From: Escherichia phage ECBP2
Length of the DNA stretch: 64,000 nucleotides
Strand: one strand, 5' to 3'
Sequence record: NC_018859.1
Shown here: positions 1 to 56,687 of the stretch, piece by piece
Layout: each line of letters opens with the position of its first letter
How positions within the stretch are numbered: the first letter of the stretch is position 1
The notes under the pieces: model-generated
Told to the model about the DNA's origin: nothing
Databases searched by the model: none
The model's input: the letters and a program-made list of their open reading frames with translations, nothing else
Position numbers and translations under genes: made by a program

Positions 1-1716
1 CTTCCCTTTGCAGCGATTGGTTCTTATGTCAAGGACTCTAAGGGTCGCACCATTGGTGTAAATCGTACTGGTATCAACTCTGATATCAAACAGCTCACTC
101 AGAAAGTAACCTTTACACAACCTGTAACTGTTCCTGATGCAGTTGGAGATTATGATGCAGTAACTTTGAGACAGCTTCGTAATAGTGGTGGTGGTTCTGG
201 TGGTCCTACCATGAGCGGTATCTCCAACTTTGGTATTGGTGATTTCCATCTTCGTGACAGTCGTGCTTTCATTCCTGCATTTGAAGTTGTGTCTGATGGG
301 CAGCTTTTAAACCGCGCTGACTATCCAGATCTGTGGGCTTATGCACAATTATTGTCACCAATCGAGGACTCTTTGTGGCTTTCTGACAAGTTCAAGCGTG
401 GGAGATATAGTAAAGGGGATGGTTCTACTACCTTCCGTGTTCCTGATAGGAATGGCGTTCAGGCTGGTTCTATTCGTGCTTTATATGCTCGCGGTGATGG
501 TGGTTCTTCTTCTGCTAACGGAGATATTTTTGAATCAGCAGCACCAAACATTACAGCTGATGTGACCTCGTATTCTTCAACCTCATACTCACAGGTATTT
601 GGGATAACTCATGGTGCTATGTATGTAGACAACAGCACTTTCCCAACTGGTGATGGTGATGCTATCCCTTCAACTGGAAACATTGCCATCAAAGGTCGAT
701 TCAATACCTTACACCTAGACGCATCGCGATCAAACTCAATTTATGGTGCATCATCTGATGAAATCATGGGTCGTAACTTTGTTGGTGTTTGGACTATTCG
801 TGCTCATGGTGGTTTTACTGCTGCTAATACTTCTTGGTCTGTTATTAACAGCGACTCGACAGAGCCTCCTAGCGGTACACCGATTACTGGTGGTTTAGTT
901 TCTTCTAAATACTTAGTTGGAGGTGTTGATAAGTATCGGTCTTCTTTCCAATTGCAAGGGTCTAATGAAGTTGATTTATCAACTAGAATTACCACCATAA
1001 ATGATAAATATTCCATCGGAGCTGCAACTTGGGATTTTAAATTAGATGGTAAACTTCTTTTCAACAAGAGTCTAACTCCTAATGGAACAGGAAACGCTCC
1101 TGGAAATACCTACTTAACTCTAGCTAATACTTGGATGAGTTCTTCATACTCTGGATATGTAGGGTTTGTTGGTGGTGGGGCTGGGGTTTCTAATGGGGGT
1201 TGGAGAAACTTTATTTCTTTAGGGGCTCTAATCTTCCCAGACTCTAACCATCCATCCGCTGTTATTTCTCAAGTTTATGACTATGACCTTCCTACAGGAA
1301 ATCAACCTAATGGAGACATTGTCAGAAATACCTATTTCAGTGCTGAGAGCTACGACATTACCTTCGGGAACAACAGTGGGACTACTAATTACATCTTCAG
1401 TAAATCTCCAGTCTCTGACGAACGACTCAAGCATAGCATTAAGGAAGAAGGGACAGCCACAGCTCTTTCTAACTTAAACAAGATGGAGTATAAAACCTTT
1501 ATCTATAATTATGATGAGAAAGCAACTGTAAGGCGTGGGTTTATTGCCCAGCAACTTGAAGCTATTGACCCTCAATATGTTAGGAAGTATAAAACTTTCA
1601 AAGGGACTGATACCCTAGCTTTAGATGAGAATGTGTTGCTTTTAGATGCAATTGCTGCAATCCAAGAACTTACCAAAAAGGTTGAAGTTCTAGAAGCGAA
1701 GTTAGCAGAGAAGTAA
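1..1716 (+). CDS. tail fibre protein, 5'-partial, with C-terminal intramolecular-chaperone (S74-like) domain
   Basis: Reading frame is open from nt 1 (no stop before the track start at 166, which is a TTG); tail-collar-like LNRADYPDLWAYAQ; DAVTLRQLRN fibre motif; C-terminal SDERLKHS...GFIAQQLEAIDPQYV...LDENVLLLDAIAAIQEL resembles the auto-cleaving chaperone domain of tail fibres/endosialidases. Confidence 0.7.
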   Translation, partial: LPFAAIGSYVKDSKGRTIGVNRTGINSDIKQLTQKVTFTQPVTVPDAVGDYDAVTLRQLRNSGGGSGGPTMSGISNFGIGDFHLRDSRAFIPAFEVVSDGQLLNRADYPDLWAYAQLLSPIEDSLWLSDKFKRGRYSKGDGSTTFRVPDRNGVQAGSIRALYARGDGGSSSANGDIFESAAPNITADVTSYSSTSYSQVFGITHGAMYVDNSTFPTGDGDAIPSTGNIAIKGRFNTLHLDASRSNSIYGASSDEIMGRNFVGVWTIRAHGGFTAANTSWSVINSDSTEPPSGTPITGGLVSSKYLVGGVDKYRSSFQLQGSNEVDLSTRITTINDKYSIGAATWDFKLDGKLLFNKSLTPNGTGNAPGNTYLTLANTWMSSSYSGYVGFVGGGAGVSNGGWRNFISLGALIFPDSNHPSAVISQVYDYDLPTGNQPNGDIVRNTYFSAESYDITFGNNSGTTNYIFSKSPVSDERLKHSIKEEGTATALSNLNKMEYKTFIYNYDEKATVRRGFIAQQLEAIDPQYVRKYKTFKGTDTLALDENVLLLDAIAAIQELTKKVEVLEAKLAEK

Positions 1717-43210: not shown

Positions 43211-45244
43211 TTAATGTTTACCTTTACAGTAATCTGAATTACAGATCACCCTGTTTTCTTTGTTTAGTGAGCAAATTTCTGCATCACGCCACGGAATTTG
43301 TTTATAACAGACTGCACAAAACCCAATTGAAGTCCAGAGGGCTTTTGTGAACTCAGCTGTTCGTTGTCCGTCGTAACTGACAACTGTTTTTCGGAGAGTT
43401 GTTTGCTTTTCTGGAAATGTCTCCGCTTTCTCAGCGGGCACCTCCTTTGGGGCATTCTTTGGACCATAAACAGAGATGGCATAGGTATCGCCACCACGTT
43501 TTTCCAAATAAGAGTTTGGAACATCAGACAATTCAATGTCACCAGAACGTTTAGCTGAGCTGACCATTACAATCATCCGGCTAAGCATACGCTGATCAAC
43601 ACGAACTGCTACTTCAGGGCGGCGTGGGTTAGTTGTGTCAACTGCTTTAGTCCAAATGTAACCTTCAGACAATGTAGTGTTAGTCACTTTGTCTTTGATT
43701 TCTTTGGCACAGACATAACAAATGTCTTCACCACGCAGTTTACTCATTTCATTATCAAACTCGAAATCAGTTTTAACATTACCACACACAGCACAGACAC
43801 CCAAAGGAATGTCTTCATCTTCTTCAGATGGTTTGGAGAGTGCTTCGAAACAGGCCGGATGCCAATATGCTTGGTAAGCGAACACAGCTTTCTTAGCATC
43901 TTTCCAATCAATGTGCTTATCACAACCACCACAATCACCGTGAGAATGTGATTCCCAGAACTTACGAGTGACTTCTACACCATTCTTAGTGATGAAGGAG
44001 TCTTCTAAGTCAAAAGGGATATCATCATCAAAATCAGCGGTGGTGCTTTGAGGCTCCTTATCGGTAGCGTCAACAAACAGCCCTGAAGTTAGTACGAGGC
44101 GAATCATACTGTCCACTTCGGAGATACAAGCAACTGTCCCGCGATACACTACCTTTGGGTTTTCGAGAGCCTTCAAGTACTCACTCTTGGCTACATTATG
44201 AACATCACCCTCAACATATTCTTGAGCAGCATCATCATAAATATAACCAACCATCTTACCACGGTCAGTGTTGTTGTAAGCATGGAACTCGTGAGGGATG
44301 ATATCCACACGACCATCACGACGATATGGAAGACCACGATCGGCAGCCAGTTTATTCTGATCTTCAATCGCTTTACGACGGCGAATGTCTCCGCTTGTCA
44401 CGCCGGGCTTGTCGTCTTTGTTTCCGTAAATGTCGCTTGTGCTGCTGCTTGATTTGTTTGTCTGTTGGCTCTGATATAGTGAGGAGTTCGAGTAATAGCC
44501 GCCCCAGCGACTCGTTACCGTAAAAACCGGAAGCTTGTGCTCCACCTCTTGAGTCAGAGTCATACGGTTGCCAGACAAATCAAAGATGTATTCAGTTCCC
44601 ACTTTACACTCAAAGTGATCATTGATACGGTTCTTGTGTGACTTGGAACGATTAAGAATCCACATCAACATATCTTCTTCAGAAGCACCAAACCAATCCA
44701 GACCACAACGGGCCAGATGGAAAGGACGTTCATCGTTACGAATGATATGCAGAGTATTGTCTTTGGCGTCATGCCAGATTAAAGTGAACGCACCATCCAA
44801 CTTCTGGATAGTCTCTGCTGCACCAATGGTGTTGATTGAATGACAGATGTTTTCGCTATCAACTTCGAAGTTCTTATGGTCAGGTAACAGCTCTTGGTCC
44901 ATCAATGTACCATTGTGAACCAGAGTAATGTCACCATGAGAGAACGGGTGAGCATTTCGAGCATTGACAGCGCCACGAGTGGCATGTCGGCTATGACCAA
45001 CAATCCACGCTGGAGGAACTACATAGTTCGTAAGCCCCTTAGTAATATTCGTGTACTCTGTCTGAAGCATGAAAGCATAAGAAGGAAGTGCTTCTTTATA
45101 AGAAAACACTCTTGCATCACTTTTACGCTGACCGAACACACCAGTTGAGTGCTGACCACGGAAGACTCCGGCATACAGAAGCTGGTTGAATACGTCTAAG
45201 TCTGTGGAGGTCATGTTGCCCCCAGCTAATACGATACCACAAAT
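43211..45244 (-). CDS. class-II glutamine amidotransferase (Ntn hydrolase) with Cys-rich C-terminal region; probable AUU start
   Basis: In-frame upstream extension reads stop-K-I-CGIVLAGGNMTS...; CGIVLAGG...VFRGQHSTG...GHSRHATRGAVNARNAHPF...LVHNGTL is the GATase-II signature with the nucleophile Cys directly after an ATT codon; AGGTGGA RBS 7 nt upstream. Confidence 0.7.
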   Translation of the reverse strand: MCGIVLAGGNMTSTDLDVFNQLLYAGVFRGQHSTGVFGQRKSDARVFSYKEALPSYAFMLQTEYTNITKGLTNYVVPPAWIVGHSRHATRGAVNARNAHPFSHGDITLVHNGTLMDQELLPDHKNFEVDSENICHSINTIGAAETIQKLDGAFTLIWHDAKDNTLHIIRNDERPFHLARCGLDWFGASEEDMLMWILNRSKSHKNRINDHFECKVGTEYIFDLSGNRMTLTQEVEHKLPVFTVTSRWGGYYSNSSLYQSQQTNKSSSSTSDIYGNKDDKPGVTSGDIRRRKAIEDQNKLAADRGLPYRRDGRVDIIPHEFHAYNNTDRGKMVGYIYDDAAQEYVEGDVHNVAKSEYLKALENPKVVYRGTVACISEVDSMIRLVLTSGLFVDATDKEPQSTTADFDDDIPFDLEDSFITKNGVEVTRKFWESHSHGDCGGCDKHIDWKDAKKAVFAYQAYWHPACFEALSKPSEEDEDIPLGVCAVCGNVKTDFEFDNEMSKLRGEDICYVCAKEIKDKVTNTTLSEGYIWTKAVDTTNPRRPEVAVRVDQRMLSRMIVMVSSAKRSGDIELSDVPNSYLEKRGGDTYAISVYGPKNAPKEVPAEKAETFPEKQTTLRKTVVSYDGQRTAEFTKALWTSIGFCAVCYKQIPWRDAEICSLNKENRVICNSDYCKGKH

Positions 45245-45321
45245 TTTCTAATCCACCTGAAGGGTAAACCCTTTCATCTAATTAACCTTTAAATGCGCCC
45301 TTTATCAGAGCGCCCATTGTA

Positions 45322-46422
45322 TTACAGCAGTCGTTCTAATTGCATTTCCAGATGGTCTGGAATATAACCAGTGACGTTATCATCACTGCTACCCGATTCA
45401 CGCATCAATGCAAACATGTGACGAATTTCACGAACCGTTGCGATTCGAGTGCTTTCAATCTGAGGGGTGTAATAGGTCATGATCTCTTCATAGACAGCGT
45501 TGGCATTACCACGAACATATCCCAAGAAACCATAGAAGTCACCCATATCACGCAAGTTGATAAGGACTTCACCATCAGGGCCAGTCTGTTGTACACGAAC
45601 ACGACCAACCAGAGTAACAGAATGTTCACGACAGAACAGAATATCACGAGCCAAACGATAACCACCAGTCAGGTCATCATCATTAGGTGTGTAGTCCAGA
45701 GGCAGATACTGAATCATAGGAGCGAAGCGTAGCTCATTCAGTTTCTCAACATATGCTTCATTGTCCAAATCTGCATACTCAACAGCCAGTTTCTTAAGAA
45801 CCAAGAAGCGGTTGACCAGATTAAGGAGTTGGCTTTTCTTCCACTTTGGCTCTGAGATACGAAATTCAACAGAACCAAACTGAGCCAGAGGTAATAGGTT
45901 AAGGGAGGTGTACTTGTCCCAGCTATTAACAAGAGTATTGAAGAAGGCTTCACCATCTCGGTTGAACGCTGAGGAAGCATTCATTACCTGTGCTTGAACA
46001 ACAGCAAAGGCAGGACAGAAGTTGCTACGATAACGATGATATCCAGAACATTTGAACATCATCTTTTCATAGAACGTCCATCCAAGAATTACTTTCTTCA
46101 GGATATTACTATCAGCGTCACGCATATCCATATGAACGTGAGTAGAGCAGCGCCAAGTCCCTTCAGCTTCAGAGTCTTGTACTGCTTCACTCAGATTGTT
46201 AATAGCACTAAGCAATTCTACACCGTTGTAAGGCCGTGCACAAACCATCTCACAGCCATCACGAAGTGAACCATCTTCAGTACAGACCCAAAGATCTGCA
46301 TCAATTTCAGAGGTTCCTTCAACTTCCAGCTCGATGCCAATACCACACTGAAAAGCGATGCTTGGGTGCGGCTCAGCCAGACGAGCATTACGGTATCCAA
46401 AAACTTGTGCTACGGTTGTCAT
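45322..46422 (-). CDS. amidoligase (glutamine-synthetase-fold carboxylate-amine ligase)
   Basis: QCGIGIELEVEG and WRCSTHVHMDMRD resemble the GIELE / HVHxG motifs of GCS2-type amidoligases. Confidence 0.55.
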   Translation of the reverse strand: MTTVAQVFGYRNARLAEPHPSIAFQCGIGIELEVEGTSEIDADLWVCTEDGSLRDGCEMVCARPYNGVELLSAINNLSEAVQDSEAEGTWRCSTHVHMDMRDADSNILKKVILGWTFYEKMMFKCSGYHRYRSNFCPAFAVVQAQVMNASSAFNRDGEAFFNTLVNSWDKYTSLNLLPLAQFGSVEFRISEPKWKKSQLLNLVNRFLVLKKLAVEYADLDNEAYVEKLNELRFAPMIQYLPLDYTPNDDDLTGGYRLARDILFCREHSVTLVGRVRVQQTGPDGEVLINLRDMGDFYGFLGYVRGNANAVYEEIMTYYTPQIESTRIATVREIRHMFALMRESGSSDDNVTGYIPDHLEMQLERLL

Positions 46423-54294: not shown

Positions 54295-54370
54295 TGGTGC
54301 ACCCTACAGGATTCGAACCTGTAACCAACGACTTAGAAGGTCGCTGCTCTATCCATTGAGCTAAGGGTGC
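54295..54370 (-). tRNA. tRNA-Arg (anticodon UCU), CCA encoded
   Basis: GCACCCTTAGCTCAATGGATAGAGCAGCGACCTTCTAAGTCGTTGGTTACAGGTTCGAATCCTGTAGGGTGCACCA folds as a cloverleaf: 7-bp acceptor, GCTC/GAGC D-stem, anticodon loop CUUCUAA, T-arm ACAGG-TTCGAAT-CCTGT. Confidence 0.85.
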
Positions 54371-54379
54371 TTGAATTGT

Positions 54380-54688
54380 TTATAAGGAGAAAGACTTCTT
54401 ACAATCCTTATCTTCAAAAGTGTAGTAGCCTGTTGTATCAGGGAAGTAGGCATACTTTGTTTCTTTGCCATCAGTAGCCATGACACGATTACCAGAAGTT
54501 GTTTCTACAAACAGAAGCCCATCTCTTACCATACCATTAGATTCTTTGATACCAGTTAAGCTATGCTCTTTAAGAGTGCATTGCTGAACACTCTGATACT
54601 TAACTCCAATCTCTGCACTATTAACAGAGATGATACCAATGGTTGTCATTAGTAGTAAGGTTGAGATGATAAAATGCTTTTGTTTCAC
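54380..54688 (-). CDS. secreted protein
   Basis: Signal peptide MKQKHFIISTLLLMTTIGIISVNSA. Confidence 0.45.
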   Translation of the reverse strand: MKQKHFIISTLLLMTTIGIISVNSAEIGVKYQSVQQCTLKEHSLTGIKESNGMVRDGLLFVETTSGNRVMATDGKETKYAYFPDTTGYYTFEDKDCKKSFSL

Positions 54689-54706
54689 ATTAACCTCTGG
54701 ATTTAT

Positions 54707-54916
54707 TTAACTGAAGATACGCAAGGCCACATCGTGATAGATATGACCGGGGACTTTGTGCTGTTCTATTTTCAAACAGCGTTTACAGACACGAGATACA
54801 CGAGACTCTTTCGCTTCAACTGGAGTGTCTTTAGCGTGAGTGATATGTAAGTTTTCAGTGATCACCCACTCGTGTTTACATCCAGAATCTTCGGGCTTTT
54901 TCTTACGAAAGAACAT
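54707..54916 (-). CDS. small zinc-ribbon-like protein (family with the next two)
   Basis: CKHEW...CKRC. Confidence 0.4.
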   Translation of the reverse strand: MFFRKKKPEDSGCKHEWVITENLHITHAKDTPVEAKESRVSRVCKRCLKIEQHKVPGHIYHDVALRIFS

Positions 54917-54924
54917 AACACCTC

Positions 54925-55089
54925 TTAGATCAAATCTGTTTTCTTGTGCTTACCACACACTTTACAGCGGGAGTAGATACGCAACCCTTGCTGCTCTCCT
55001 CCAGCAATACGATGTGTAACCTTTAGTTCATAAGTAGAAAGATCTTCCCACTCATGGAAATGAAAGAAACGTTTGAACCATTTAATCAT
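54925..55089 (-). CDS. small zinc-ribbon-like protein (54 aa, below track cut-off)
   Basis: MIKWFKRFFHFHEWEDL...CKVCGKHKK. Confidence 0.35.
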   Translation of the reverse strand: MIKWFKRFFHFHEWEDLSTYELKVTHRIAGGEQQGLRIYSRCKVCGKHKKTDLI

Positions 55090-55098
55090 AACGATTCC

Positions 55099-55245
55099 TT
55101 AGATTATGTCACGATGACTAACTTCACCACACACTTTACACTGGATATCGTAACGTACGCCCCTTGAATCTCCACAGATCAGCGGACGGGTGGCAATAAT
55201 CTTCCAATCATGACAATGAAAGACACGCTTTATCCACGTAATCAT
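55099..55245 (-). CDS. small zinc-ribbon-like protein (48 aa, below track cut-off)
   Basis: MITWIKRVFHCHDWKII...CKVCGEVSHRD; paralog of the previous. Confidence 0.35.
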   Translation of the reverse strand: MITWIKRVFHCHDWKIIATRPLICGDSRGVRYDIQCKVCGEVSHRDII

Positions 55246-55246
55246 A

Positions 55247-55504
55247 TTAAACACACGCCGGTAGTTCAATTAACTGAGGAGCACGACAAGGACCATCTTC
55301 ATACACACCAACCAACGTTGGCATGTAAGGCCCAGCGCACTGGTATTCGTCGAACAGTTCGTTATAGTTAGGCTTCCACTTCCAAGCCCACACATAACCC
55401 ATTCGATCAATGGCAATGTAACGAGTGTTCAGAGGAACCTGCATCATCACATCACCAACTGCTATTACTTTCGTAATAACTGCTGCTCGGAAATTTGTCT
55501 TCAT
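55247..55504 (-). CDS. hypothetical protein
   Basis: 85-aa ORF. Confidence 0.4.
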   Translation of the reverse strand: MKTNFRAAVITKVIAVGDVMMQVPLNTRYIAIDRMGYVWAWKWKPNYNELFDEYQCAGPYMPTLVGVYEDGPCRAPQLIELPACV

Positions 55505-55752
55505 GGCGCTTTAATCTCAATCTGAACATTGACAACAAATACAGTATGGTTTGCACTGTACACCGAAGTGCCTATGATTGGCTTGTCATCACTGAGGATT
55601 TCAACAGCGTGTTCAAGGTTGATCTTCAGATGAAGACGCCCTGATTCCATGAAGAAATCACCAGCACGTATCTCACCGAACTTGGCTGGCACACCGATAG
55701 AGGGTATCAGTATGTCAGTGCGACCTTTACGGTCAAATAAACGATTAAACAT
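55501..55752 (-). CDS. small GDVF-motif family protein
   Basis: FGEIRAGDFFME. Confidence 0.45.
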   Translation of the reverse strand: MFNRLFDRKGRTDILIPSIGVPAKFGEIRAGDFFMESGRLHLKINLEHAVEILSDDKPIIGTSVYSANHTVFVVNVQIEIKAP

Positions 55753-55796
55753 ATCAACCTCTCTTGTTAGTTTAAGTAAGAGTTATCCCTTAATTA

Positions 55797-55827
55797 AAAC
55801 AACAAAGGCCACCCCGAAGGGCAGCCT
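55797..55827 (-). terminator. rho-independent terminator
   Basis: GGCTGCCC-TTCG-GGGTGGCC hairpin + U-run on the - strand. Confidence 0.5.
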
Positions 55828-55831
55828 CTTA

Positions 55832-56029
55832 TTAAGCACTACGCAGTTTGTTATTCAAGAAGCGATCTTCTGCATTATATAGGAATGCATAGAATAATTC
55901 TTTTGCTACATCCCGATCGCAATTGAGACATTTAGAAACCTGTAACAACAGGCCATCGCGACTGTTAGGATGGTCAATTATCGCAAGACGAATAATCTCA
56001 CGGATACCAACATCATGCTCAGCCGCCAT
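55832..56029 (-). CDS. hypothetical protein
   Basis: Track start 56041 is GTG; ATG (MAAEHDVG) at 56029. Confidence 0.35.
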   Translation of the reverse strand: MAAEHDVGIREIIRLAIIDHPNSRDGLLLQVSKCLNCDRDVAKELFYAFLYNAEDRFLNNKLRSA

Positions 56030-56159
56030 AGAACCAATCACCTTGACGCTTACGGATGTTAGTGGTCAGACGAAGCATGGCAGACTCAATCTTCAGAGCA
56101 CCATTTGCTACTGCATCCATACGTTCAGGACGGTTCATACGTTTGGTTGTCTTTTTCAT
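56019..56159 (-). CDS. small basic protein (46 aa, below track cut-off)
   Basis: MKKTTKRMNRPERMDAVANG... Confidence 0.3.
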   Translation of the reverse strand: MKKTTKRMNRPERMDAVANGALKIESAMLRLTTNIRKRQGDWFYGG

Positions 56160-56190
56160 AACGTTCTCTCTTTGTTAATGGAGGCAGGAT

Positions 56191-56223
56191 TGCCAGTTAA
56201 TATAAAGGGAAGCCCTACACGTT
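56191..56223 (-). terminator. putative terminator hairpin
   Basis: GGAAGCC...GGCTTCC 7-bp stem with 11-nt loop followed by a U-rich run on the - strand. Confidence 0.35.
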
Positions 56224-56347
56224 AAGGCTTCCGCTTGTACAAACTGTCGAGAACTCTCTACCCCTAGATTGTTCTCTATCCCAAACCGATACATACCCCT
56301 ACATATCGGAATGCCATTCGAAAATTAAACAGGTTTTAGTCTATCAC

Positions 56348-56465
56348 CGGATGTTTGAGACAAGTCTCGCCCTAGCGGTGAGCCATATGGCATTGAGATT
56401 ATAGTTAATTGAGGAACATCCTCACATAGCCCTCTGATAAACACAAGGGCTATAAGTCGATGTTA
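56348..56465 (-). other. conserved 3' non-coding element, copy 2
   Basis: Core shared with 50685-50815; begins at the stop of gene 56463-56687. Confidence 0.5.
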
Positions 56466-56687
56466 CTTATTAGTTAGTCGAACGTTAGGCACAAGTTTAA
56501 CTGCTGCTGTTTTCATCTCTCCAATGACCTTACCGGTAGAGAGATTAACAAAATAAGCAGTGACTTCACCACCACAAGCTGTACGCATATAATAACTGCT
56601 TCCAGTTCTGTCAAACTGAAAAACGTCTCCCGGCTTTACATCACCAAGAGTTGTGACGCTTTGCTTTTTATCAATATCAATCTTCAT
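56463..56687 (-). CDS. small GDVF-motif family protein
   Basis: LGDVKPGDVFQF. Confidence 0.5.
   Translation of the reverse strand: MKIDIDKKQSVTTLGDVKPGDVFQFDRTGSSYYMRTACGGEVTAYFVNLSTGKVIGEMKTAAVKLVPNVRLTNK

What the first reader, a model, noticed from the sequence alone, without database searches (positions are those of the whole stretch)
45212..45250. Glutamine amidotransferase appears to initiate at an AUU codon
The conserved GATase-II N-terminus CGIVLAGG, whose Cys is the catalytic N-terminal nucleophile, lies upstream of the first ATG. The only in-frame codon between that Cys and the upstream stop (TAG AAA ATT TGT) that could initiate is ATT, and an AGGTGGA Shine-Dalgarno sits 7 nt before it. 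Starting at the annotated ATG would delete the nucleophile. AUU initiation is rare and usually regulatory.
Basis: seen in the sequence. Interest (0 to 1): 0.6.

Follow-up and report, generated by a model that had tools for sequence, protein, structure and literature searches.

The report
AUU start codon of phage amidotransferase
A phiEco32-like coliphage enzyme that needs cysteine as its first residue almost certainly starts translation at the rare codon AUU; reference genomes already annotate it this way, but most relatives are annotated too short and the family uses AUU/AUC starts unusually often.

Summary
On the minus strand the sequence reads AGGTGGA-T-TAG-AAA-ATT-TGT(Cys)-GGT..., and the first ATG lies 10 codons after the Cys. 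The window is a phiEco32-like podophage (Gordonclarkvirinae).

Evidence for the ATT start:
- All 95 related phage records carry the identical 41-mer running from 33 nt upstream of the ATT through TGT-GG.
- A 66-nt block around the start has 1 variable column across three genera. In the following codons, 81% of third positions vary.
- Two of those genera lack the downstream ATG.
- Cys1-Gly2 is invariant in the 17-sequence alignment, Cys-Gly heads all 107 surveyed homologues but two, and the Cys aligns with Cys1 of GlmS and PurF.
- One relative reads TAG-TAA-ATT-TGC, which leaves ATT as the only possible start.

So AUU initiation is well supported by comparison, but it has not been shown experimentally.

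It is not new for this gene. The phiEco32, SU10 and BASEL records already start the CDS at this ATT. Most other records start it 10 to 114 codons too late.

Two things I did not find described in the papers searched. First, the codon before Cys1 is ATT or ATC in 18 of the 107 homologues, in at least 10 lineages. Second, distant lineages share the same start context, GGATTAGAAAATTTGTGG. The likely effect is weak, IF3-sensitive translation; this is inferred.

The parts
43211..45244 (-). Full coding sequence of the class-II (Ntn) glutamine amidotransferase, counted from the ATT start: 677 codons plus stop. It is the orthologue of phiEco32 phi32_83.
   Evidence: ORF and translation. Pfam GATase_6 scores 55 bits against a cut-off of 27. 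phi32_83, SU10_085 and Bas88_0074 are annotated from the same ATT.
45242..45244 (-). ATT (AUU), the proposed initiation codon, directly before the Cys1 codon.
   Evidence: It is the only plausible start between the in-frame TAG and the Cys. It is identical in 95 records. In relative L111 it is the only codon between a stop and the Cys.
45239..45241 (-). TGT, the catalytic N-terminal nucleophile Cys1.
   Evidence: C1 and G2 are invariant in the 17-sequence alignment. Profile position 1 aligns with residue 1 of GlmS 1xff and PurF 1ecb.
45248..45250 (-). In-frame TAG stop, two codons before the ATT. It rules out an N-terminal extension or propeptide.
   Evidence: It is conserved in the Gordonclarkvirinae, BUCT695, L024, L111 and the Melvirus phage T4S1.
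45252..45258 (-). Shine-Dalgarno-like AGGTGGA, 7 nt upstream of the ATT.
   Evidence: Predicted duplex with the 16S 3' end is -7.2 kcal/mol.
45260..45273 (-). Small hairpin AAGGG-TTTA-CCCTT just upstream of the SD.
   Evidence: It is present in BUCT695 as AAGGGTTAACCCTT and in L111 as AAGGGATTTATCCCTT. The inner pair changes from T-A to A-T. Its function is unknown.
45248..45277 (-). In-frame 9-codon mini-ORF, ATG AAA GGG TTT ACC CTT CAG GTG GAT TAG, ending 3 nt before the ATT.
   Evidence: It is identical in 95 records. The ATG is absent in L111, L024 and T4S1, and both differences in BUCT695 change the amino acid. The peptide itself is therefore probably not what is conserved.
45225..45290 (-). 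66-nt invariant translation-initiation block, from -46 to +19 relative to the A of ATT.
   Evidence: 1 of 66 columns varies among five genomes of three genera. The flanking CDS shows 28%, 17% and 81% variable columns at codon positions 1, 2 and 3. A 69-nt query is at least 98.6% identical in 95 records.
45295..45313 (-). Intergenic hairpin GCGCTCT-GATAA-AGGGCGC, after the amidoligase stop codon.
   Evidence: Fold. Kuravirus and KBNP1711 have GTGCCTC...GGGGCAC, with changes on both strands that keep the pairing. It does not match the terminator scan.
45212..45214 (-). First canonical in-frame ATG (codon 11). Many records use it as the start, and it would give a protein without Cys1.
   Evidence: This ATG is absent in KBNP1711 (GGSLSS) and in Paul/phiEco32 (GGNLSS).

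Best explanation
The amidotransferase gene is translated from AUU at 45244..45242 on the minus strand.

Proposed steps:
1. A 30S subunit is positioned by the AGGUGGA Shine-Dalgarno sequence 7 nt upstream.
2. Initiator fMet-tRNA reads the near-cognate AUU.
3. Deformylase and methionine aminopeptidase remove the Met. Cys is a permissive second residue.
4. Cys1 is then exposed as the N-terminal nucleophile that every class-II (Ntn) glutamine amidotransferase needs.

The in-frame UAG two codons upstream guarantees that no longer, Cys-blocked product can be made.

What is shown at the sequence level:
- the layout of the start site;
- the absence of any canonical alternative start;
- the invariance of the start region in 95 genomes;
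- the coding signature in the ATT frame;
- the recurrence of ATT/ATC at this exact position in many related genes.

What is inferred from established knowledge of AUU starts (infC, pcnB; IF3 discriminates against AUU, AUC and AUA):
- initiation at AUU itself;
- Met removal;
- the consequence that the gene is translated weakly and in an IF3-sensitive way. This would hold the amidotransferase below its operon neighbours (amidoligase, COOH-NH2 ligase).

Because the start codon is weak, the rest of the initiation region (hairpin, SD, A-rich spacer, first codons) would be under strong purifying selection. That would explain the invariant 66-nt block.
For: Start-site layout:
- TAG-AAA-ATT-TGT with AGGTGGA 7 nt upstream.

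The product is an Ntn amidotransferase that needs Cys1:
- Pfam GATase_6 scores 55 bits.
- C1, G2, R28, G29, GHxRxATxG, AHPF, HNG and DS are invariant in 17 diverse homologues.
- The profile aligns Cys to residue 1 of GlmS 1xff and PurF 1ecb.

Conservation of the start region:
- The 41-mer is identical in 95 records. The 69-mer is at least 98.6% identical, while 74 of the same records are only 60-80% identical over the surrounding 1 kb.
- The leader has 1 of 66 variable columns.

The downstream ATG is not the start:
- It is absent in two genera.
- Codons 8-115 show 28%, 17% and 81% variable columns at positions 1, 2 and 3 in the ATT frame.

Other lineages with the same start context:
- Aeromonas phage BUCT695, 52% tblastn protein identity, same leader.
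- L111, 57% identity, reads TAG TAA ATT TGC.
- L024, 32-36% identity, has GGAGGATTAGAAAATT-TGTGG.
- Melvirus phage T4S1 has AGGAGGATTAGAAAATT-TGTGG.

Family survey of 107 homologues:
- ATG 79, ATT 14, ATC 4, TTG 6, GTG 3.
- The one remaining case reads ATG-TGC-TGT, so no codon outside these types appears to serve as the start.
- Every ATT/ATC case in the set has an SD-like match upstream.

Existing support:
- phiEco32, SU10 and the BASEL records annotate this ATT as the start.
- The SU10 orthologue was detected by mass spectrometry with 9 peptides (PMC4281155).
- IF3 autoregulation of infC acts through its AUU/AUC start, and AUU/AUC gave about 5% of AUG expression in one test system (PMC5499595).
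Against: - There is no experimental N-terminus, ribosome profiling or toeprint for this protein or any orthologue. The SU10 supplements hold no N-terminal peptide.
- The SD is only moderate at -7.2 kcal/mol. Across the family, SDs before ATT/ATC are not significantly stronger than before ATG (p = 0.06).
- A conserved in-frame mini-ORF ends 3 nt upstream. Ribosomes may therefore reach the AUU by re-initiation rather than de novo.
- In this phage and in SU7 an ATG with a G-rich stretch lies 10 codons downstream. It could give a minor Cys-less product.
- The purpose of a weak start (low expression, IF3 sensing) is untested. infC shows that an AUU gene can still be well expressed.
Confidence: 0.85

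Rival explanations
1. AUU is still the start, but ribosomes reach it mainly by termination-reinitiation. They translate the 9-codon mini-ORF (or, in relatives, an upstream gene), stop at the UAG 3 nt before the AUU, and restart there without leaving the mRNA. Expression of the amidotransferase would then be coupled to upstream translation.
For: - The mini-ORF ATG..TAG is in frame, ends 3 nt before the ATT, and is identical in 95 records and present in BUCT695.
- In L111 a longer upstream ORF with a helix-turn-helix-like sequence runs through the leader and stops at TAG TAA directly before the ATT.
- In L024 the upstream gene stops 20 nt before the ATT.
- AAAGG lies 8 nt before the mini-ORF ATG.
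Against: - The mini-ORF ATG is missing in L111, L024 and T4S1, which keep the ATT.
- BUCT695 has no SD before its mini-ORF ATG (AAATGTAATATTAG-ATG).
- The ATT has its own SD at a normal spacing, so de novo initiation needs no coupling.
Confidence: 0.25
2. Translation starts at the downstream ATG (45214..45212), as many public records annotate. The CGIVLAGG codons are untranslated leader, and the protein is not a working glutaminase.
For: ATG is a canonical start with a G-rich stretch (GGGGG) 5 nt upstream. The SU7 record annotates it with a ribosome-binding site.
Against: - The ATG is absent in KBNP1711, Paul and phiEco32. There the next ATG is 45 to 114 codons further on, inside conserved domain sequence.
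- Cys1-Gly2 is invariant in the 17-sequence alignment.
- All tblastn matches to distant homologues start at query residue 1.
- The nucleophile would be lost.
Confidence: 0.03
3. The protein is made as a precursor from the mini-ORF ATG by read-through of the UAG, giving MKGFTLQVD-X-KI-Cys.... The 12-residue propeptide is then cut off autocatalytically, as in B. subtilis PurF.
For: The mini-ORF is in frame with the enzyme and conserved. Propeptides exist in some Ntn amidotransferases (established knowledge; the chloroplast PurF 6lbp aligns from residue 13).
Against: - The only tRNA in the window is Arg-TCT, so there is no suppressor.
- Other genes in the window read normally with the standard code.
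- L111 has two consecutive stops, TAG TAA.
- L024, L111 and T4S1 lack the upstream ATG.
- The two differences in BUCT695 are both amino-acid changing.
Confidence: 0.03
4. The ATT is a sequencing error, or a disabling mutation of an ATG in a decaying gene.
For: ATT is one base away from ATG.
Against: - 95 independently sequenced genomes have ATT.
- The gene shows strong purifying selection: 17% and 81% variable columns at codon positions 2 and 3.
- The SU10 orthologue was detected as protein.
Confidence: 0.01

Closest known systems
phiEco32 gene phi32_83 (EU330206 / NC_010324), with SU10_085 and BASEL Bas87-93 orthologues
   Same: It is the same gene, with the same leader and the same ATT, and the CDS is already annotated as starting at that ATT.
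   Different: Nothing of substance; the window is a 95-96% relative of TH34, TH42 and Bas88. I found no paper in the searchable library that discusses or tests the start. The 2008 phiEco32 paper was not available to read.
E. coli infC (IF3) and pcnB, the classical AUU-initiated genes
   Same: Both have an AUU start preceded by an SD and conserved across relatives. IF3 is expected to discriminate against it, giving low or IF3-dependent translation (PMC5499595; established knowledge).
   Different: - infC regulates itself because its product is IF3. No feedback is evident here.
- The product here is a phage metabolic enzyme whose first residue must be Cys.
- IF3 dependence was not tested.
Class-II (Ntn) glutamine amidotransferases GlmS and PurF (E. 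coli), and propeptide-bearing PurF (B. subtilis)
   Same: The N-terminal domain has the same Cys1 nucleophile and the same RxATxG, HNG and DS motifs. The profile match starts at residue 1.
   Different: - GlmS and PurF of E. coli start ATG-TGY.
- B. subtilis PurF uses a propeptide. Here a stop codon two codons upstream excludes one.
- The C-terminal 440 residues, which contain several CxxC pairs, have no Pfam match.

Membership tests
Class-II (Ntn) glutamine amidotransferase | Cys as the first residue of the mature protein (N-terminal nucleophile) | tested here: met
   TGT follows the proposed start directly. C1 and G2 are invariant in the 17-sequence alignment, and the Cys aligns with residue 1 of GlmS 1xff and PurF 1ecb. 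Cys-Gly heads all 107 surveyed homologues except L104 and L114, which have Cys-Arg. Actual Met removal was not shown.
Class-II (Ntn) glutamine amidotransferase | Significant match to the family's sequence models | tested here: met
   Pfam GATase_6 scores 55 bits (cut-off 27) and GATase_7 scores 25.8 bits (cut-off 25). The PDB profile search finds GlmS at E = 1.6e-13. The single-sequence PDB search found nothing.
Class-II (Ntn) glutamine amidotransferase | Conserved glutamine-binding and oxyanion motifs (R..., RxATxG, HNG, D-S/T) | tested here: met
   R28, G29, G82-H83-x-R85-x-A87-T88-x-G90, A97-H98-P99-F100, H109-N110-G111 and D128-S129 are invariant.
Class-II (Ntn) glutamine amidotransferase | Glutaminase activity | not testable with these tools
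   This needs an enzyme assay.
AUU-initiated bacterial or phage genes (infC / pcnB type) | AUU at the 5' end of the conserved reading frame, with no canonical start available | tested here: met
   Only AAA and ATT lie between the in-frame TAG and Cys1. In L111 only ATT does.
AUU-initiated bacterial or phage genes (infC / pcnB type) | Shine-Dalgarno sequence at working distance | tested here: met
   AGGTGGA lies 7 nt upstream, at -7.2 kcal/mol.
AUU-initiated bacterial or phage genes (infC / pcnB type) | The non-AUG start is conserved in relatives | tested here: met
   ATT is kept in 95 of 95 Gordonclarkvirinae records. ATT or ATC is found in at least 10 further lineages.
AUU-initiated bacterial or phage genes (infC / pcnB type) | Experimentally mapped N-terminus or initiation site | not testable with these tools
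   No data were found. The SU10 proteomics supplements contain no N-terminal peptide.
AUU-initiated bacterial or phage genes (infC / pcnB type) | Expression responds to IF3 level | not testable with these tools
   This needs reporter fusions in infC mutant or IF3-overproducing hosts.
Propeptide-bearing Ntn amidotransferases (B. subtilis PurF type) | Open reading frame with a canonical start upstream of the Cys | tested here: not met
   An in-frame TAG lies two codons before the Cys. L111 has TAG TAA.
Stop-codon reassignment or programmed read-through | Suppressor tRNA, or in-frame TAG codons in other genes | tested here: not met
   The only tRNA is Arg-TCT. Long ORFs across the window are intact with the standard code.

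The most novel reading that the evidence does not exclude
The AUU start is not an oddity of one gene. It would be a selected translational control device of a whole family of phage amidotransferases.
- ATT or ATC sits directly before Cys1 in about 17% of 107 surveyed homologues, in at least 10 lineages that are no more than 50% identical to each other.
- ATT and ATC (and ATT and TTG) swap within clades.
- Several very distant lineages share one start module: hairpin, GGAGGA or GGTGGA, TTAGAAA, ATT, TGTGG.

If selection for a weak, IF3-sensitive or operator-controlled start explains this, the family would, as far as I know, be one of the largest natural sets of AUU/AUC-initiated genes outside infC. 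The invariant 66-nt block might also be a translational operator bound by a phage protein, possibly the enzyme's own CxxC-rich C-terminal region.
Probability: 0.35. Interest if true: 0.6.

Novelty: already known. Interest (0 to 1): 0.4.

Why it matters
**Annotation.** Of the annotated records listed, about 7 in 56 start this gene at the ATT. The rest begin 10 to 114 codons late. They therefore deposit proteins that lack the catalytic cysteine (for example SU7, KBNP1711, Paul, BUCT695 and T4S1). Standard gene callers do not consider ATT (my knowledge), so the error will spread to new records.

**Biology.**
- The gene offers a clean natural case for studying AUU/AUC initiation outside infC. The first residue after Met is functionally fixed, and the start region is invariant across 95 genomes.
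- The same start context recurs in unrelated phage groups.
- If the weak start sets the ratio between the amidotransferase and the amidoligases of this little-understood phage operon, it becomes a handle on what that operon does.

Tried and rejected
- **Rfam** scan of 45000..45500 at a permissive E-value gave only two sub-threshold chance hits.
- **Sigma-70 promoter and intrinsic-terminator scan** around the leader found no promoter and no terminator at the intergenic hairpin.
- **The phiEco32 gp36 promoter motif TAATGTATA** (PMC8948821, PMC4331800) is not near the gene. The leader's TTTAAAGGTTAAT matches it poorly.
- **A conserved RNA fold of the leader.** The minimum-energy fold of the window pairs the SD, but its z-score is -0.9. 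Neither that pairing nor a long-range pairing of -41..-35 with +13..+19 recurs in BUCT695, L111, T4S1 or L024. Only the small AAGGG/CCCTT hairpin is shared.
- **Repeats of the leader elsewhere in the window.** There are none within 3 mismatches.
- **Stronger SD as compensation for ATT/ATC.** The trend is -8.8 against -7.7 kcal/mol and is not significant (p = 0.06).
- **Other frames and recoding, read by eye.** The TTG and GTG that overlap ATT-TGT are out of frame and run into stops, or are not conserved. A -1 slip at A-AAU-UUG leads to the wrong frame. There is no landing codon for a gene-60-type bypass.
- **Literature.** I found no paper in the searchable library that mentions this start. The 2008 phiEco32 paper is not held. 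The SU10 supplements hold no N-terminal peptide.
- **Single-sequence PDB search** found nothing. The profile search worked.
Full report
**What is in the sequence**

The feature lies on the minus strand. Read 5' to 3' it is:

...GCGCTCTGATAAAGGGCGC ATTTAAAGGTTAATTAG ATG AAA GGG TTT ACC CTT CAG GTG GAT TAG AAA ATT TGT GGT ATC GTA TTA GCT GGG GGC AAC ATG ACC...

| Element | Window coordinates (minus strand) |
|---|---|
| In-frame TAG | 45250..45248 |
| ATT | 45244..45242 |
| TGT (Cys) | 45241..45239 |
| First canonical in-frame start, ATG | 45214..45212 |
| AGGTGGA | 45258..45252 |

AGGTGGA lies 7 nt before the ATT.

From the ATT the ORF is 677 codons (43211..45244). Its N-terminal 190 residues or so match the Pfam class-II amidotransferase models: GATase_6 scores 55 bits against a cut-off of 27.

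**Where the window comes from**

- The region is 95-96% identical to coliphages TH34, TH42, TH43 and Bas88, 89% to SU7-like phages, and 77-78% to KBNP1711, phiEco32 and Paul-like phages. All are phiEco32-like podophages of the Gordonclarkvirinae.
- The gene is the orthologue of phiEco32 phi32_83.
- It follows an amidoligase (PF12224), a small protein of unknown function, and a phiEco32-type COOH-NH2 ligase (PF14395), all on the same strand.

**Is the Cys needed?**

- In an alignment of 17 homologues down to 29% identity, C1, G2, R28, G29, GHxRxATxG, AHPF, HNG and DS are invariant.
- A profile of that alignment matches GlmS and PurF structures. Profile position 1 aligns to residue 1 of the mature enzymes, 1xff and 1ecb.
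- tblastn matches to phage homologues from many genera nearly all begin at query residue 1, the Cys.
- A product that started at the downstream ATG would lack the nucleophile.

**Is ATT the start? Comparative evidence**

1. All 95 Gordonclarkvirinae records contain the identical 41-mer ATGAAAGGGTTTACCCTTCAGGTGGATTAGAAAATTTGTGG. This rules out a sequencing error and a recent mutation.
2. In KBNP1711 (…AGGSLSSYD…) and in Paul and phiEco32 (…AGGNLSSTD…) the downstream ATG does not exist. The next ATG is 45 to 114 codons further on, inside conserved domain sequence.
3. Across five genomes from three genera, codons 8-115 in the ATT frame have 28%, 17% and 81% variable columns at codon positions 1, 2 and 3. 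This is a clear coding signature in that frame.
4. The block from -46 to +19 around the ATT has only 1 variable column in 66. The surrounding kilobase is only 60-80% identical in 74 of the 95 records.
5. No other route to the Cys is open.
   - Only AAA and ATT lie between the stop and the Cys.
   - The overlapping TTG and GTG are out of frame.
   - The only tRNA in the window is Arg-TCT, so there is no suppressor.
   - Other genes read normally with the standard code.

**Relatives outside the subfamily**

Most homologues have ATG directly before the Cys. Examples are Proteus P59, Salmonella PKM.Hi.22.6, Vibrio SJSY21, Pseudoalteromonas HP1, Pseudomonas Bjorn and LUZ24, and Aeromonas LAh_8. CVT22 has TTG and APT65 has GTG.

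Several distant lineages share the ATT and its context:

| Lineage | Protein identity to the window | Start context |
|---|---|---|
| Aeromonas phage BUCT695 (Grimontviridae) | 52% (tblastn) | Same leader with three changes; hairpin kept |
| L111, a contig in a Herbiconiux assembly | 57% | ...AAGGGATTTATCCCTTGGAGAGGAT TAG TAA ATT TGC |
| L024, an IMG/VR contig | 32-36% | GAAGGAGGATTAGAAAATT-TGTGGC; no hairpin or mini-ORF |
| T4S1, an oyster-virome Melvirus | not computed | GGGGTTGTGACCCC-TAGGAGGATTAGAAAATT-TGTGGA |

In L111, ATT is the single codon between a stop and the Cys.

**Family survey**

I read the codon before Cys1 in 107 homologues. They came from IMG/VR, GTDB genomes and phage records.

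| Codon before Cys1 | Count |
|---|---|
| ATG | 79 |
| ATT | 14 |
| ATC | 4 |
| TTG | 6 |
| GTG | 3 |
| ATG-TGC-TGT (one odd case) | 1 |

- No other codon type occurs. If ATT and ATC were ordinary sense codons inside longer proteins, a mix of codons would be expected.
- In most ATT/ATC cases an in-frame stop lies 1 to 15 codons upstream with no canonical start in between.
- Every ATT/ATC case in the set has an SD-like match in the 22 nt upstream.
- The ATT/ATC genes fall in at least 10 lineages that are no more than 50% identical to one another.
- Within clades ATT and ATC interchange (L086 with L052 and L057; L024 with L102). L114 (ATT) is 88% identical to L104 (TTG).
- From general knowledge, ATT and ATC starts are far below 1% of annotated bacterial and phage genes. 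Seventeen percent is therefore a strong enrichment. I did not run a matched control, and the tree used was a rough neighbour-joining tree.

**What else is in the leader**

- **Intergenic hairpin.** A hairpin directly after the amidoligase stop (45313..45295) keeps its pairing through changes on both strands in Kuravirus and KBNP1711.
- **Small hairpin.** A hairpin AAGGG-TTTA-CCCTT (45273..45260) sits just before the SD. It is kept in BUCT695, and in L111 the inner pair is swapped.
- **Mini-ORF.** An in-frame 9-codon mini-ORF ends at the TAG. Its ATG is missing in L111, L024 and T4S1. Both differences in BUCT695 change the amino acid. The peptide is therefore unlikely to matter.
- **Possible re-initiation.** In L111 a longer upstream ORF runs through the leader and stops at the same TAG. 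Re-initiation after termination is a possible contributor and is listed as a rival.
- **No other signal found.** I found no conserved larger RNA fold, no Rfam family, no sigma-70 promoter or terminator match, and no phiEco32 gp36 promoter motif nearby.

**Mechanism**

Shown by sequence: the layout of the start site, the lack of alternatives, the conservation and the coding frame.

Inferred from established knowledge:
- Initiator tRNA reads AUU.
- The Met is removed, because Cys is a permissive second residue. Cys1 then becomes the nucleophile.
- IF3 discriminates against AUU, AUC and AUA, so output is low and depends on IF3. This is how infC is autoregulated. AUU and AUC gave about 5% of the AUG level in one phage-gene test system (PMC5499595).
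- A weak start codon makes initiation depend more on the rest of the site. That fits the invariant 66-nt block.

Why a weak start would be favoured is not known. Possibilities are keeping a glutaminase low relative to its partner ligases, or allowing complete Met removal.

**Is it new?**

Not for this gene.
- phiEco32 (EU330206 and NC_010324: phi32_83, 54493..56523, minus strand) starts at this ATT. So do SU10_085 and the BASEL phages Bas87 to Bas93.
- The SU10 orthologue was detected by mass spectrometry with 9 peptides (PMC4281155).
- I found no paper that discusses or tests the start. The 2008 phiEco32 paper could not be read.
- Most other records start the gene too late. Among the annotated records listed, about 7 of 56 cover the ATT.
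- I did not find the family-wide recurrence of ATT/ATC, or the shared start module in distant lineages, described in the papers searched.

**Verdict**

My confidence that AUU is the start is about 0.85. It is not experimentally proven.
- The 'regulatory' reading is plausible but untested.
- Novelty is low for the gene itself, and interest is moderate because of the family pattern and the widespread mis-annotation.

Noticed in passing
window 45295..45313 (-): A hairpin GCGCTCT-GATAA-AGGGCGC sits directly after the amidoligase stop codon. Kuravirus and KBNP1711 have GTGCCTC...GGGGCAC at the same place, so the pairing is kept by changes on both strands. Distant relatives also have a hairpin followed by TTTAAA(T/A)G before this gene (PKM.Hi.22.6, LAh_8, APT65). 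It may be a weak terminator, a processing site or an mRNA stabiliser.
   Followed up: partly
public records of relatives (e.g. MZ342906 SU7, NC_023593 KBNP1711, MN045231 Paul, OL799327 BUCT695, PQ867847 T4S1): Most deposited annotations start this gene at a downstream ATG, 10 to 114 codons late. In BUCT695 and T4S1 the annotated start is 10 and 3 codons after the Cys. The database proteins therefore lack the catalytic Cys1.
   Followed up: yes
L111 1..230 and L012 (BUCT695) 270..350: In two distant relatives, a short ORF with a helix-turn-helix-like sequence (…CSQxH(I/V)SKLExGKY…) lies upstream of the amidotransferase. In L111 it runs through the leader hairpin and ends at the TAG just before the ATT. 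The invariant leader of the coliphages may be a remnant of that gene's 3' end.
   Followed up: partly
window 12974(+), 22625(-), 22696(+), 29690(-), 62377(-): There are five exact copies of TAATGTATA, the published consensus of promoters read by the phiEco32 gp36 sigma factor. The count with one mismatch allowed (22) is no more than chance (19 expected). None is near the amidotransferase gene.
   Followed up: no
window 54295..54370 (-): A single tRNA gene, Arg with anticodon TCT.
   Followed up: no
window 43211..44500 (-), C-terminal about 440 residues of the amidotransferase: After a Ser-rich linker, the protein has several CxxC pairs (e.g. CGGC…, CAVCGN…CYVC, CAVCYKQ…) that look like zinc ribbons. 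This part has no Pfam match. Shorter homologues (L010, L024) also end in CxxC motifs. Its role is unknown; it could bind a partner or nucleic acid.
   Followed up: no
window 45212..45214 (-): The in-frame ATG at codon 11 is preceded by GGGGG. It is present only in the SU7 and Bas88-like group and could give a minor product without Cys1 in these phages.
   Followed up: no
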